64,000 nt of DNA from Saccostrea cucullata (Eukaryota). The stretch is from NCBI RefSeq assembly GCF_032062105.1, contig NW_026935419.1, positions 372,001 to 436,000 on the forward strand, written 5' to 3'. Positions 45,401 through 57,400 of this stretch are shown here, piece after piece. Made by a program: the position numbers. How positions within the stretch are numbered: the stretch's first letter is position 1; each line of letters opens with the position of its first letter.

Positions 45401-48400
45401 ATTTCAGCGAATTTTTATTTTTATTTTGATAAGGGTATTCAGACACACCTAGAAAAACACATAATAATACACAAAATACACCATCCTGAAACCAAGCGCC
45501 TATGTATAAACCGAGGTCCCGTGTCGCAGTAGGTGCTGGCTCGAAAAAGATCCCTCGCTGCTAGGACAAAATTTGTAGCTCTCCACCGGCAAGTGGTGGC
45601 GTCTCCAAATGAGTAAAAAAAATCTCGAGAGAGACGTTAAACAACATACAATCAATCAATCTACCTGATCAATACATGGGGATCATGGGATGTGTGGCCG
45701 CTCAACAGGGGATGTTTTCTCCTCCTCGATACCTAATCCCACCTCTGGAATTTCCGGGGGTCCGTGTTTTTTGCCCTCTGTATATATTGCAATTCAATAA
45801 TTATGCTTCAGTCTAGAATCATCTTCGCTAGCCAAGTGTTGGATTCGTTTCCCTCATTGCAAGACATAGTACACGAGACATTTTATGTACGACTGTCTTG
45901 GATTATGCCGGTGTCGCAATCGCAACTTGTTCTTCGTGTGTCTTTTGTATTTTTAGCTGCAGCTGGTGGTTTCGTGTTGTGGGACGCCGTAACGGAAAAG
46001 AGGGTAAAGAAAAATATATTTTCGATAATTCCTATAATTTGTAATTTTTGTAATAAATGTCCCGATGAAAATTTTAACTTTATTCCGAATTTCCTCTTGC
46101 AAACTAATATGACCTCTCTCTGTATAGAGCATTTACACGTAAATGAGCCTTGAATGGCTTGATCATTTGAGTTTAAAATGTGTTCTTGTCGAGCAAAAAT
46201 ACTTGAATAAACCCATGTGTCTTTTAATTTCAAGTGAACACTGTTCCAGTTGTGGACGGCTCGAATTTCCTCGCAAAATATAAGCAACACATCATCTATA
46301 CTCTAGTCTACTGAGGCCTGTTCAACAGAGCAAACGTTCGCGAGCGTTCGCTAAAATTCCTTATACCTCCAATAGAAAAGTTCACGAGCACTCGCCCTGT
46401 TGAACAGGCCTCAGCTGGTCACTGGTCAGAGACCCAAAAGAGTTAATGTGATAGTAAGGCGTCTGTCTGTTTGTCTGTCCGTCTGTAAACAATTTTATAA
46501 AACATTAATCCTCTGACAGTTTTAGCCTCAGTCTGCTTTCAAAGTAACTTCAAGTTGGCACACAAATACACTAAGCTACATAATTCTGTGTATCAACTTG
46601 ATTTCCATGAAGGGTGTTGTCATGGTTACTGAAAATTGAAATTTCTATGAAATACTTTCAAAATGTTACTACTCCTATATCTGCAGACTGTTTATTATTA
46701 TAATATGATTACATGTACTTGTTTGCTATTATTCGTCTGATCATTGCAGTATAAAGTAGCTTGGTTTTTTTCTTTTCTTTTCCCTGATATTGTATTATTA
46801 TTACATTATATGTGATGCTTATATTCCATTGTGAACTATACCATGCAGTATTCCTAATCTGAGAACTTTTACAAGCGAGGATCAAGTAAATTTTGCACCT
46901 GATGCAAACATTACCTGTTAATGTTGTTATAATCATGATTATATTGTTTGTTTTTAATTGCATATACCCCCTGAGGGCTGCCCTTGATTGGTGAATAAAT
47001 GAAATAAATATAATGCTACAGATCCCTTAATGCGAATAAGGTGCTATATATGGCTCAATTTTCTGTGCACTGATGGGGAGAATTTTTTCACTTTCCAGAA
47101 TTGGTCAATCAAGTACCTTTTACTCCCTAATTCTAGAAACATTATTTATGTAAGCAACCTGTGTATTGTATCAACATCCAGACCCTTTATAGTTGTCTAT
47201 ACAGGCCATAAAACTTGCTTGTTTTGAATGTTCTGCTATCAGACACAACATTCAAATCAAGAGAGTATATTGGCACTAGACAACTGTAAGGGTTTCAGCA
47301 GCCAAGGAGGGCAAAATCTACAAGTTGATTCACAATGTGTCTTGAATTACTTTCACTCATTTATATTGAAGAAGCATCAATAATTTTTCCTACTTTTTTC
47401 AGCGAATGAGAGACGGGGTACTCAGAGATATAGAAAAAATGCAACAAAGGAAACAGAAATCTGAAGATCAACCAAAAGAAAACTAACACAAATTGGGGAG
47501 AAGAAACAGTCATAAAGGAAACTCACAAAACAGAGCATAAACAGGTATCCTGGTAATCTGAATGACCTGAACAATAGAGAACTTCATGTTGAAGAAAAAT
47601 GAGACTGAAACCATAATTTTCAAGGAAATGTATAAAACCTGCCTCTAAGACCACTACATAATAGAAGAAGAGTTGTGATGGAAGAGACAGCTTTCTAAGA
47701 ACATTGTAATTGATTGAGGTTACATGAAATCTGACCATGACTTTAACTGTCTTTTGTTTAACGGGTTTTATTTAATGAGTGCTTATTAAACTAATTGTTT
47801 ATATTTGTTTAGTTGGTGTTTTTCCTATTTATTTATTGTAAATGTTTTTCTCACATTTTTTTTTACAATGAGTTCATTGGATGATAATAAAAACAAAAAC
47901 AAGATGTGTTTATGAAACACTATGCACCCGATGGCAACAAAGTTTGGAAAAAGCTATTTTTAGCATTAAGGTCACAGTCAAGGTCACAAGGTCATTGACC
48001 TTGGTGTCATTTGAAAGAACCTGAATAGTGGAGTATGCATACCAAATATGATGTCTCTATTTTTCATGGTTCAAAAGTTATGGTGAAGGTTAAAGTTTGC
48101 AGAAAAAAGCTATTTTTAGCATATAGGCCACAGTTAAGGACACAAGGTCATTGACCTTGGTGTCATTTGAAAGAGCTTAATTAGTGAAGTATGCATACCA
48201 AATATGAAGTCTATATCTTTCATGGTTCAAAAGTTATGATGAAGGTTAAAGTTCGAGAGAAACAAACAAACAAACAGAACAGTCAGACAGACAGACAGGA
48301 CAAAAACAATATACGCCCTTGATCTACCAATCCGGGTGCATAATAAAGATTCAGTATGTTATGCTAGTTTTTTACGGAGTATATGCTGCAGCTATATTTT

Positions 48401-54400: not shown

Positions 54401-57400
54401 TTTCAAGCTTATAATCAGCTTGTGTATTTTGAAATACAAACTTGTGCGAATATCCAACAATACCAATTCAATCTTCCTTTTGTAATGTATGCCTATAACA
54501 CATAACAGTATTAAACATTGAAAAATAAGTAGCTTGTGCTTATGTGTTTATAATTCATTAACTTTATATAGTATGTAGAATACAAGGCATAAACTTAATA
54601 GGTTTGTAACACAATATTACTTTTTTTTTTTTACCTCCGCCACTAGTAAGTTTACATGTGTATGTATGTATATAGCTTATAATTAATTCAGTCAAGATGA
54701 CTCTAGCTAAGCTTAATAATTTTTCTCAGTGTTCTTTTTATTATGATTGAGTATTATAATGCTTATTTATTTTCTTTTTTAAATTTTATTTTGCAGCACA
54801 TGAATACAGTGATTGGCAGATTAGAGAAAATTACAACAGGTAGAAAAGGTATGAGAGCTCAGCAAAAGGAAGAGTACCAGAAATGGAGAGAGGAGAAGAA
54901 GCTAGAGAATAGAAGGAAACGAGAACTTCAGGTAGTGAACCAGTCAGGGGGATCTTCCTAATTTCAGTCACTGTTCTACTGTTCTTGTAGCTGCAGATCC
55001 GAAGCTGGCTAGTCTGAAAAAAAAGAATTTGGATGGATGAAATGAGAGTAGTAGTGTCACCCAATAAAAAAAAAATTTTATTGTGCACAAAAAAATGCAG
55101 TGCTCCTCGATTTATGTAGCTTTCTGGTCATCCATCCCAATTTTATTTATATCAGCAAGCTAAATGTACAGTTTTGCAGCTACCGTTATTGCTGCATATC
55201 TCAAGGATTTCAATGTAATACATGTATAGCATTTTCTATACTTTTCTGCTCTTTAAATTTTTTATCTGGCATGTGATTGGCATGATATATATGTAGCTTC
55301 AGGGATTTAAAAAAAATAAATTATGCTCAAATACAGAACTTGAGTGAAGAATTTTCGACAAGATCGAGGAAGAAATGATCAAGTCTGCATTTATAAAATT
55401 ATTTTTTAAATAATTTAAATGTTTACAAACATATGTTGCCCTCCTTCTTTATTTTTTCCCTATACAAACATCACTTACTTGGAAATTTGTTAAAATCTAT
55501 TTCATGTGAAGATGATACATGTATCAATACATGTGTAGAAATATCTACCAGTAAATGAAAAAAACAAAAATTTCAGATTTATTTTTTCAAACTTATTTTT
55601 TCTTTGGTTTTACTTAATGTTAAATTTTAAAATTGAAAATAAATATTTTATATACAAATGAAATATGTAATATTTAACACCTAATACATGTCTTTTTATT
55701 TTGAATCTTCAATCATTGTGTCAAGGGCAATAACTCTATTAGCATTACCCAAGTGTTTGTAATATTCATTTTATGTCCTGATGTATGAAGAGATAGGAGA
55801 TGTTATATTGATAGACACTTTTACCTAAAATGCATCAATTCACATGTTCTGCTATTTTGTCAGCTTAATACAAATCCTGCTCCAATTTTTTTTTCATTTG
55901 TATTTTGTAACATTACTGGAAAGGATATTTTGTAAGGTAGAAAATGTGAGTTTTATAAGTTTTATTGGACTGTTTTTTGTTATTTTTTAAAAATAATATT
56001 CTAGTCCTGCATTACCTCTGAGGGCCCTTAATAGCAAGTCATGCCTTGTCCCTATTTCAATTATTTTTTTCTCCATTTGGTAAAGATAGGGGACATTAAA
56101 TATCAATTCATTTGTCCATCTGTCACAAAATGTCTACTAAATAGTCATAACTTTTGAATGAGAAAAGATGAGGCTTTCATATTTTACATGTATGTTACCT
56201 GTGACAAGATTTTTTATAATTTACTGTGCCTAAACCCCGTGATATTGAAGTTTATCTAATTTAAAAAAAAACTAGAGGTTCTGTGAGCAATGAGCTCACT
56301 AAATGATATCCCCCGCCTCCCATATGAATATAATGGCAGTATCCATGTTTTGCTCTGGAAAATCCAAAATATATGTCAGATCAAAAAGTAAAATAGGAGG
56401 TGCACAATGGCAATATGTAATGAAGAATCTGTGAAAGTTTCATTAAATTTCCTTCAGTGGTATGAGAGGAGTTGCGGATAAGAGAGGGTACCCCAAAGCG
56501 TAACAGACGGACAGAGGGATGGAAATACCGATTACTATATACCCTCCCACTTTTCAAGCGGGGGGGTATAATTAACACTGGTTATAACTTTTGAATGAGA
56601 TAAGATAAATAATTACCTGTTACAAGAAATCTTTGAGTATGCTTTGATTTTTACCCTTAATCTTTACATTGAAGTTTGATTTAATTTAATAGGTTATTTG
56701 TAGTGGGAATACATGTGATTTTTAAAGGAGAGAAGATGGGTTTGGGCATTTATATATGACAAGTGTATTTTCTGTGACAGGAAGTTTCCAAAGTTTATGA
56801 GATATTTGACCTGTGACCTTGACCTTCAAGTTTGACCCAATTTTTAAAAAAAATCATTGCTGCCAACTTTTGAAAGAGAGAAGGGAGGGCATGTCATTCA
56901 TATTTTACAGGACAAGACATTTCCAAAAGTACTGTAATTTTTAAATCCTATTTTCTTGACCTTGAAGTTTTATGTATTTTTTTTTTATTTTTAACATTGC
57001 TGATAGCTTTTGAATAAAAGAAGACATGGCATATCATATTTGACATGGGCTTTACCTGTTTAAAGACCTCTCTGAACATACTCTGGTTTGTGACTTCATG
57101 ACCCTTACGTTAAAGATAACTTAGTAGTTAGTCTTGTTCATTTTTTTTACATTGTCAATACCTTTTGAAAAAATAGGGATTTCATATTTTTCAGGTACAT
57201 TACTTAAGACAACATCTTTCAGAAAAGTTTATCATTTTTGACTTCATAACCTGGACCTAGAAGTTTGAAGGACACACAACAGATAGTTACAATATGCCAT
57301 AGATAAATGAATCCCAACCACTAAAAGACAAAAAGGAAGGGCCACAATTCTTTGAGTCTGTTGTTCCCCACTTTCTGTCCATCTGTCTGTCTTTCTGTCT

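What the first reader, a model, noticed from the sequence alone, without database searches (positions are those of the whole stretch)
45905..54961. Tandem pair of PET117 and a highly diverged PET117-like microprotein gene
Seen: two small 2-exon genes 6 kb apart on the same strand, each with a hydrophobic N-terminal helix and a phase-0 intron after codon 33 or 32. Their junctions align (AGGFVLWDAVTEKR|RMRDGVLRDIEK vs AGAFLYDIGTGKK|HMNTVIGRLEK). The canonical copy has a short tail (60 aa); the diverged copy has a long charged coiled-coil tail. Established: PET117 is a small complex IV assembly factor acting with COX15 and is typically single-copy. Inference: an old duplication with sub- or neofunctionalisation. 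Both genes are easy for annotation pipelines to miss.
Basis: partly seen in the sequence, partly recalled or inferred. Interest (0 to 1): 0.68.

Follow-up and report, generated by a model that had tools for sequence, protein, structure and literature searches.

The report
Tandem PET117 gene and diverged duplicate
Two tiny two-exon genes lying 6 kb apart are real duplicates of each other: one is a recognisable PET117 (a helper for building cytochrome c oxidase), while the other has drifted out of the family's protein signature and carries a longer charged tail.

Summary
Gene A is 45905-46003 plus 47403-47486 (33+27 codons). Gene B is 53785-53880 plus 54797-54961 (32+54 codons). Both have GT-AG phase-0 introns.

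All searches were run exon by exon; the joined peptides were left out. A exon 2 matches Pfam PET117 (E=0.001, profile 30-54 of 67). Neither B exon matches any family. Protein similarity between A and B is at noise level.

The DNA shows common descent:
- Exon 1 is 46/78 nt identical in frame (0 of 20000 codon-aware permutations reach this).
- A local alignment of exon 2 plus downstream sequence gives 72/106 identities (1 of 3000 shuffles reaches its score).
- An 11-mer, CGAATTTCCTC, occurs only four times in 64 kb, twice in each first intron.

A's stop codon TAA aligns with an in-frame TAC in B, so the difference in tail length traces to one codon.

dN/dS is roughly 1 from few codons. B is therefore a fast-evolving paralogue or a well-preserved relic. 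Expression and conservation could not be checked.

Two truncated copies of A's promoter and first 20 codons also lie upstream, in a 1873-nt tandem triplication.

Verdict: a real tandem duplicate, an ordinary kind of event, of moderate interest.

The parts
45905..46003 (+). Gene A (PET117) exon 1: 33 codons with an N-terminal hydrophobic helix
   Evidence: Translation. Best 17-residue Kyte-Doolittle mean 2.11. No Pfam hit on its own.
46004..47402 (+). Gene A intron: GT..AG, phase 0, 1399 nt. It contains a MITE-like hairpin at 46311-46414.
   Evidence: Sequence. Inverted repeat. Sub-threshold Rfam hairpin match.
47403..47486 (+). Gene A exon 2: 27 codons plus TAA (47484-47486). It carries the PET117 juxtamembrane signature.
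   Evidence: Translation. PF15786 at E=0.001, 19.6 bits (curated cut-off 27), residues 1-25 on profile positions 30-54 of 67.
47886..47891 (+). AATAAA, a candidate poly(A) signal of gene A (ATTAAA also at 47785)
   Evidence: Pattern match only.
53785..53880 (+). Gene B exon 1: 32 codons with a hydrophobic helix, homologous to A exon 1 at DNA level
   Evidence: Translation. Global alignment with 6 nt of donor gives 61/105 identities; 0 of 5000 shuffles and 0 of 8358 real window segments reach its score. In-frame identity 46/78 nt; 0 of 20000 architecture-preserving codon permutations reach it.
53881..54796 (+). Gene B intron: GT..AG, phase 0, 916 nt
   Evidence: Sequence. Colinear exact matches to A's intron total 53 nt; 0 of 2000 shuffles and 23 of 3000 real window pairs reach this.
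54797..54961 (+). Gene B exon 2: 54 codons plus TAA, with a basic charged tail. The codon TAC at 54875-54877 aligns with A's stop.
   Evidence: Translation. Local alignment of A 47426-47523 with B 54818-54921 gives 72/106 identities; 1 of 3000 shuffles and 0 of 3152 real segments reach its score. No Pfam or PDB relative.
55063..55068 (+). AATAAA, a candidate poly(A) signal of gene B, 102 nt after the stop
   Evidence: Pattern match only.
46086..46096 (+). Intron motif CGAATTTCCTC, A site 1, 83 nt after the exon end
   Evidence: 4 matches in 64 kb, 0.03 expected. Flank 16/18 identical to B site 1.
46262..46272 (+). Intron motif CGAATTTCCTC, A site 2, 259 nt after the exon end
   Evidence: Part of a 16-mer shared with B site 1.
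53947..53957 (+). Intron motif CGAATTTCCTC, B site 1, 67 nt after the exon end
54107..54117 (+). Intron motif CGAATTTCCTC, B site 2, 227 nt after the exon end
40340..45964 (+). Tandem triplication of a 1873-nt unit made of the LINE 3' end, the PET117 upstream region and the first 60 nt of exon 1. Units: 40340-42212, 42213-44085, 44086-45964. It leaves two truncated exon-1 stubs of 20 codons each at 42151-42210 and 44024-44083.
   Evidence: Units 1 and 2 are 100% identical over 1873 nt. Unit 3 is 97.7% identical.

Best explanation
Gene B is a tandem whole-gene duplicate of the PET117 gene A.

What B kept: the start codon, the N-terminal membrane helix, the phase-0 GT-AG intron at the same codon position, and an open reading frame.

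What B lost or changed: its protein sequence changed about as fast as silent sites, so it lost the PET117 juxtamembrane signature. Its reading frame also continues where A has its stop (A TAA against B TAC), through sequence that aligns with A's 3' UTR. This adds a 27-residue longer, strongly basic stretch that is probably helical.

Most likely product (inferred, not shown): a single-pass microprotein of the mitochondrial inner membrane with its tail in the matrix, like PET117, but with changed or relaxed partner binding.

The 11-mer kept twice in each first intron suggests that both genes still answer to the same regulator (inferred).
For: Shown:
- Gene models and phases.
- A exon 2 matches PF15786.
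- Exon 1 DNA homology. The global alignment has z about 7; 0 of 5000 shuffles and 0 of 8358 real segments reach it. It survives codon-aware nulls: 0 of 20000 and 1 of 20000.
- Exon 2 plus downstream gives 72/106 identities; 1 of 3000 shuffles and 0 of 3152 real segments reach its score. A's TAA lies opposite an in-frame TAC in B.
- The 11-mer occurs 4 times in the window, all on the + strand, two per intron at similar offsets, against 0.03 expected.
- The colinear intron chain totals 53 nt, with no minus-strand matches.
- B's exons and intron are unique in the window, not repeat-derived.

Intactness: substitution-only neutral drift of A to 60% identity kept the ATG, both open exons, GT and AG in 147 of 200000 runs. 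With a membrane-grade helix as well, this fell to 22 of 200000.

Background from papers:
- Pet117 lies on the matrix side of the inner membrane and stabilises Cox15 oligomers (PMC7140478 passages; PMC7582755 passages).
- B's tail has net charge about +7, which fits a matrix-facing tail by the positive-inside rule (established knowledge).
Against: - B has no protein-level support for the family. There are 0 Pfam families at E<=10 for 5 of 5 B pieces. PDB hits are only E 0.79 and 1.1 and none for exon 1. BLASTP against A finds nothing.
- Within the window, B exon 1 is not among the top 8 protein matches of A exon 1.
- The substitution pattern shows no purifying selection. Exon 1 has pN 0.45 against pS 0.30, and exon 2 has pN 0.50 against pS 0.635, from 26 codons each.
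- The two halves of the exon-2 alignment are weak alone: 188 of 3000 for the coding part and 506 of 3000 for the part after A's stop. 'Homology past the stop' therefore rests on the joint alignment.
- Motif neighbourhoods are only marginal alone: 25 of 1000 and 190 of 1000.
- The motif was found by eye, so its count is post hoc.
- There is no transcript, orthologue or localisation evidence of any kind.
Confidence: 0.55

Rival explanations
1. B is a dead duplicate: a copy of PET117 that is not expressed or not translated, and whose intact frame and splice sites are luck.
For: - dN/dS is about 1 or above in exon 1. Third codon positions are no less conserved than the first two (15, 14 and 17 of 26).
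- The PET117 signature is gone: only A exon 2, 1 of 3595 six-frame segments, matches the motif pattern.
- No family match.
- The locus is prone to partial duplication, as the two truncated exon-1 stubs show.
- The T-poor, purine-rich downstream sequence keeps frames open easily (inference).
Against: - Neutral drift to the observed identity keeps all gene features in only 147 of 200000 simulations even without indels.
- The hydrophobic helix is retained.
- Both intron motif copies are intact in B.
- From the Glu-Lys pair to A's stop, the 18 codons of exon 2 align in frame without gaps.
Confidence: 0.3
2. A and B are not separate genes but alternative exon pairs of one PET117 transcription unit. 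Because both introns are phase 0, A exon 1 could be spliced to B exon 2, giving isoforms with a short or a long tail.
For: - Same strand, equal intron phase, 6.3 kb apart.
- A table in an oyster paper lists a 'Protein PET117 homolog' gene model spanning 14.2 kb, far more than A's 1.6 kb (PMC13280272, table passage only). Its relation to this window is unknown.
Against: - A exon 2 ends in a stop, followed by poly(A) signals at 47785 and 47886.
- B has its own ATG with an in-frame stop 12 nt upstream.
- The spacer is filled with satellite repeats.
- Nothing here tests splicing.
Confidence: 0.1
3. B is unrelated to PET117. It is either a chance pair of open frames or an unrelated microprotein with a convergent 'helix plus charged tail' build.
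For: Protein comparisons are at noise level. Many small mitochondrial and ER proteins share this build (recalled).
Against: - Exon 1 DNA identity is far beyond codon-aware nulls.
- The exon 2 alignment.
- The shared intron 11-mer pair.
- Identical intron phase and position.
Confidence: 0.05

Closest known systems
PET117 (Pfam PF15786), a cytochrome c oxidase assembly factor that stabilises COX15 oligomers
   Same: - Gene A: exon 2 matches the profile colinearly, it has an N-terminal hydrophobic helix, and it has two coding exons like the human gene (PMC5429353 passage).
- Gene B: descends from the same gene by DNA evidence, and keeps the same exon-intron build, a helix followed by a charged tail, and a length (86 aa) near the human 81 aa.
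   Different: - Gene A is short (60 aa). It ends two residues after profile position 54 of 67. By my estimate this is within a few residues of the human nonsense mutation at codon 58 of 81, which causes complex IV deficiency (PMC11011759 section 3.2.3 passage).
- Gene B has no profile match, lacks the Arg-Asp-Gly...Arg-Asp signature, and has a more basic tail.
PET100 and other single-pass mitochondrial assembly microproteins such as COX14 and mitoregulin (build recalled, not tested)
   Same: Under 100 aa, with one N-terminal membrane helix followed by a charged helical tail.
   Different: No Pfam hit to any of these families for B's exons at E<=10. B's DNA points to PET117 as its source.
ORF extension or truncation by a stop-codon change after gene duplication (a general evolutionary mechanism)
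   Same: A's TAA lies opposite B's in-frame TAC, and B's extra 27 codons align with A's 3' UTR.
   Different: The direction is unknown without an outgroup: stop gain in A or stop loss in B. The part after the stop is not significant alone (506 of 3000).

Membership tests
PET117 (PF15786): gene A | Match to the family profile | tested here: inconclusive
   Exon 2 alone: E=0.001, 19.6 bits, below the whole-protein cut-off of 27, on profile positions 30-54 of 67. Exon 1 alone: no hit. The whole spliced peptide was not searched, because the joined step was left out.
PET117 (PF15786): gene A | N-terminal hydrophobic helix directly followed by the conserved charged motif | tested here: met
   Best 17-residue Kyte-Doolittle mean 2.11 in exon 1. 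The motif sits at the start of exon 2.
PET117 (PF15786): gene A | Coverage of the whole profile, including the C-terminal part | tested here: not met
   The match ends at position 54 of 67, and the protein ends two residues later.
PET117 (PF15786): gene B | Match to the family profile | tested here: not met
   0 families at E<=10 for exon 1, exon 2 and three sub-pieces of exon 2, that is 5 of 5 pieces without a hit. HMMER's filters drop most matches above about E=0.1, and the joined peptide was not searched.
PET117 (PF15786): gene B | Juxtamembrane signature as seen in A (Asp-Gly, aliphatic residue, any residue, Arg/Lys, Asp/Glu, aliphatic residue). That this signature defines the family is recalled. 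| tested here: not met
   The pattern scan of 3595 six-frame segments found only A exon 2.
PET117 (PF15786): gene B | Common descent with a bona fide PET117 gene | tested here: met
   DNA homology of exon 1, of exon 2 plus downstream sequence and of the intron motif pair.
PET117 (PF15786): genes A and B | Mitochondrial inner-membrane location, binding to COX15, requirement for complex IV assembly | not testable with these tools
   Needs experiments. The function is known from yeast and human (PMC7140478, PMC7582755, PMC11011759 passages).

The most novel reading that the evidence does not exclude
The ancestral PET117 function has been split between two tandem microproteins.
- A keeps the conserved juxtamembrane signature but is cut off by a stop close to where a human nonsense mutation is pathogenic.
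- B has lost the signature but keeps (or has gained) the long basic tail.

The two would then act together, for example as a membrane-helix heteromer, on COX15 and COX1 maturation, co-regulated through the shared intron motif.
Probability: 0.1. Interest if true: 0.65.

Novelty: new variant of a known kind. Interest (0 to 1): 0.38.

Why it matters
PET117 is a poorly understood, disease-linked assembly factor of about 60-110 residues. In the human paper's BLAST searches it had no relatives (PMC5429353 passage).

A natural pair in which one copy keeps the signature motif without the tail, and the other keeps a tail without the motif, would work as a free domain-dissection experiment for this protein.

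The case also makes two practical points:
- Microprotein paralogues can be invisible to protein searches and still be provable from DNA.
- Annotation pipelines could miss B, or merge it with A.

If B proves to be unexpressed, this is just an ordinary decaying tandem duplicate.

Tried and rejected
**Searches that found nothing**
- PDB sequence searches with B exon 2, A exon 2 and B exon 1: only E 0.79 and 1.1 chance hits, or none.
- Antisense ORFs over both first exons (45883-46302 and 53772-53960, minus strand), the stop-to-stop extension of B exon 2, and a neighbouring ORF: no credible Pfam family.
- Extra signature-bearing exon 2 copies in the window: none.
- Rfam scan of 45500-55500 at E<=1: nothing at gathering score and no snoRNA at the intron motifs. 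My idea that the motif belongs to an intronic box C/D snoRNA therefore has no support.

- Structure prediction of B exon 2: not accepted twice. 'Helical' and 'coiled-coil' therefore remain untested.
- Complex prediction was not used. It would have needed the joined peptides, and no binding claim is made.

**Weak or uninformative results**
- Promoter 11-mer GGAATYTCCGG: 4 hits, three in the copies of A's promoter and one 96 nt before B's ATG. I defined it post hoc. By my own rough estimate, a 10-of-11 match between two 300-nt regions is expected about 0.7 times, so I give it no weight.
- The motif core resembles Rel/NF-kB-type half-palindromes. This is recalled only and was not tested.
- Fixed-window alignments of the first 100 intron bases, the last 60 intron bases and the 100 nt before the ATG show no similarity.
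- The bacterial-type promoter/terminator scan and the tRNA scan were uninformative for a eukaryotic locus.
- One literature search was badly framed and returned only unrelated bivalve papers.
- The Taylor et al. 2017 paper (PMC5290955) is not held.
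Full report
**Scope and limits**

All protein searches were made exon by exon. The joined (spliced) peptides were not built, searched, folded or compared.

Conservation and expression of either gene outside this window therefore stayed unchecked. Supplementary files of papers were not seen.

The window has no N and is about 33% G+C. It carries a LINE-like element and satellite arrays. I do not take it for human.

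**1. The observation**

The sequence holds both models as described.
- Gene A: exon 1 at 45905-46003 (33 codons), a GT..AG intron at 46004-47402, and exon 2 at 47403-47486 (27 codons plus TAA).
- Gene B: exon 1 at 53785-53880 (32 codons), a GT..AG intron at 53881-54796, and exon 2 at 54797-54961 (54 codons plus TAA).
- Both are on the + strand and both introns are phase 0.
- Both start codons have A at position -3. B has an in-frame stop 12 nt upstream. AATAAA follows A's stop at 47886 (ATTAAA at 47785) and B's stop at 55063.
- Each exon 1 holds a membrane-grade hydrophobic stretch (2.11 and 2.45). B's exon 2 has 14 K+R against 7 D+E.

**2. What A is**

A exon 2 matches Pfam PET117 (PF15786) at E=0.001 and 19.6 bits, with residues 1-25 on profile positions 30-54 of 67. 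Exon 1 alone matches nothing.
- The score is below the whole-protein cut-off of 27, as expected for half of a 60-residue protein.
- The match is colinear with a 33-residue first exon.
- Human PET117 also has two exons and encodes 81 residues (PMC5429353, Discussion passage).

I accept A as PET117, with confidence about 0.9.

A is short. It ends two residues after profile position 54 of 67. By my estimate this is close to the human nonsense mutation at codon 58 of 81, which causes complex IV deficiency (PMC11011759, section 3.2.3 passage; PMC5429353 passage).

**3. What B is at protein level: nothing recognisable**

- Pfam gives 0 families at E<=10 for B exon 1, B exon 2 and three sub-pieces of exon 2.
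- PDB gives only E 0.79 and 1.1 for exon 2, and nothing for exon 1.
- BLASTP of A against B, exon by exon, finds nothing at E<=100.
- Smith-Waterman scores against 20000 shuffles: exon 1, 396 reach the observed score. Exon 2, 9304.
- Among 3595 six-frame segments of the window, B exon 1 is not in the top 8 matches of A exon 1. Only A exon 2 carries the Asp-Gly signature pattern.

**4. The DNA does establish it**

*Exon 1*
- Exon 1 plus 6 donor bases aligns globally with 61 identities in 105 columns (score 11).
- None of 5000 dinucleotide shuffles (mean -31.6, sd 5.9) and none of 8358 real window segments (maximum -7) reaches this score.
- Two helix-coding sequences share codon periodicity, so I repeated the test with codon permutations. 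0 of 20000 reach the score when all codons are permuted. 1 of 20000 reaches it when codons are permuted only within the polar and hydrophobic blocks.
- The gapless in-frame comparison gives 46 of 78 identical bases, against 28.2 +/- 4.0 under the null (0 of 20000).

*Exon 2*
- The best local alignment joins A 47426-47523 to B 54818-54921 with 72 identities in 106 columns (score 22).
- 1 of 3000 shuffles and 0 of 3152 real segments (maximum 18) reach this score.
- The alignment runs across A's stop. A's TAA (47484-47486) lies opposite B's in-frame TAC (54875-54877, the 27th codon of exon 2).
- Taken apart, the two halves are weak: the coding part is reached by 188 of 3000 shuffles and the part after the stop by 506 of 3000. 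Two mismatched controls sit at the null (2793 and 1958 of 3000).
- From the Glu-Lys pair to the stop, the 18 codons align in frame without gaps.

*Introns*
- The 11-mer CGAATTTCCTC occurs 4 times in 64 kb against 0.03 expected. All four are on the + strand, two in each first intron. They lie 83 and 259 nt after A's exon end, and 67 and 227 nt after B's. Allowing one mismatch adds a single site elsewhere.
- A colinear chain of exact matches (16+13+13+11 nt) links the introns, with no minus-strand matches. 0 of 2000 shuffles and 23 of 3000 random real-window pairs reach it; I did not inspect those 23 pairs (in one search the comparable pairs were repeat families or this motif).
- The motif was noticed by eye, and its neighbourhoods alone are marginal (25 of 1000 and 190 of 1000).
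- The rest of the introns and the 100 nt before the ATGs do not align.
- B's exons and intron are unique in the window.

*Conclusion:* B and A descend from one gene, and the duplication covered both exons and the intron.

**5. Age and selection**

- Identities by codon position in exon 1 are 15, 14 and 17 of 26.
- Nei-Gojobori counts give pS 0.30 and pN 0.45 for exon 1, and pS 0.635 and pN 0.50 for exon 2, from 26 codons each.
- These counts are small and noisy. They give no sign of purifying selection on the residues, and they do not look like an ancient pair.
- A still fits the family profile, so most protein change is probably on B's side (inference).

Against simple decay: substitution-only drift of A to 60% identity kept the ATG, both open exons, GT and AG in 147 of 200000 runs. 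It kept a membrane-grade helix as well in 22 of 200000. Real drift would add indels. Both intron motif copies are also intact in B. The argument is weakened because B was noticed precisely because it is intact.

**6. How it most likely works**

PET117 sits on the matrix side of the inner membrane, binds COX15 and stabilises its oligomers. This couples haem a synthesis to COX1 maturation (PMC7140478 and PMC7582755 passages).

- A presumably does this job.
- B keeps the membrane helix and has a tail of net charge about +7, which fits a matrix-facing tail (inference from the positive-inside rule).
- B has lost the signature next to the helix, so canonical partner binding is doubtful.

I commit to this reading: B is a fast-evolving, lineage-restricted PET117 paralogue encoding a single-pass mitochondrial microprotein with altered function (0.55).

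Rivals: an unexpressed relic (0.3), alternative exons of one unit (0.1), and an unrelated gene (0.05).

Whether A gained its stop or B lost it cannot be told without an outgroup. The longer family profile and the 81-residue human protein lean towards truncation of A.

**7. Known or new**

- No paper in the library holds 'PET117-like'.
- Of 21 papers with 'PET117' and 'paralog', the 15 listed are, by title, about other genes.
- The 10 papers with 'PET117' and 'gene duplication' gave no PET117 duplicate in the passages I read.
- An oyster paper's table lists a PET117 homologue gene model spanning 14.2 kb (PMC13280272). I did not relate it to this window.

A tandem duplicate is an ordinary event. 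The stop-codon shift and the motif/tail complementarity make this one a modestly interesting variant.

**8. In passing**

A's upstream region and the first 20 codons of its exon 1 are part of a 1873-nt unit that also includes the LINE 3' end. The unit is present three times in tandem. Units 1 and 2 are 100% identical and unit 3 is 97.7% identical. This leaves two truncated exon-1 stubs. It may be real or an assembly artefact.

Noticed in passing
window 40340-45964: A 1873-nt unit made of the LINE 3' end (about 600 nt), the PET117 upstream region and the first 60 nt of exon 1 is present three times in tandem. Units 1 and 2 are 100% identical and unit 3 is 97.7% identical. Two truncated PET117 starts (20 codons, then two more codons and a stop) lie at 42151 and 44024. 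The identical units could be an assembly artefact.
   Followed up: partly
window 37407-40936 (+): LINE-like retrotransposon with endonuclease (Exo_endo_phos) and reverse transcriptase (RVT_1, E=5.5e-19) ORFs, directly upstream of the PET117 region.
   Followed up: partly
window 46086, 46262, 53947, 54107 (+): The 11-mer CGAATTTCCTC is kept twice in each first intron and found nowhere else in the window. Its role is unexplained. It could be a shared regulatory site. 7 of the 9 window matches of its 8-mer core lie at the PET117 loci, all on the + strand.
   Followed up: partly
window 46311-46414: MITE-like hairpin in A's intron, with 38-nt arms that are 79% complementary. It has only sub-threshold Rfam miRNA-precursor matches (mir-1781, E=0.018, below the gathering score).
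   Followed up: partly
window 45225-45504, with copies at 41468-41742 and 43341-43615: A 280-nt element about 90% identical to its own reverse complement, lying in the region upstream of PET117.
   Followed up: no
window 49287-51450 and 32650-34100: Satellite arrays with a period of about 140 nt fill much of the spacer between A and B, in both orientations, and recur about 16 kb upstream. A 156-nt unit is repeated twice at 47948-48253.
   Followed up: no
window 24185-24520 (+): An exon of a CDKN3-type dual-specificity phosphatase (PF05706, E=5.7e-16).
   Followed up: no
window 20148-20990 (-) and 18448-19119 (-): A 280-residue open frame with no Pfam family, and a 223-residue open frame made of tandem units of about 56 residues with only weak scattered Pfam hits.
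   Followed up: no
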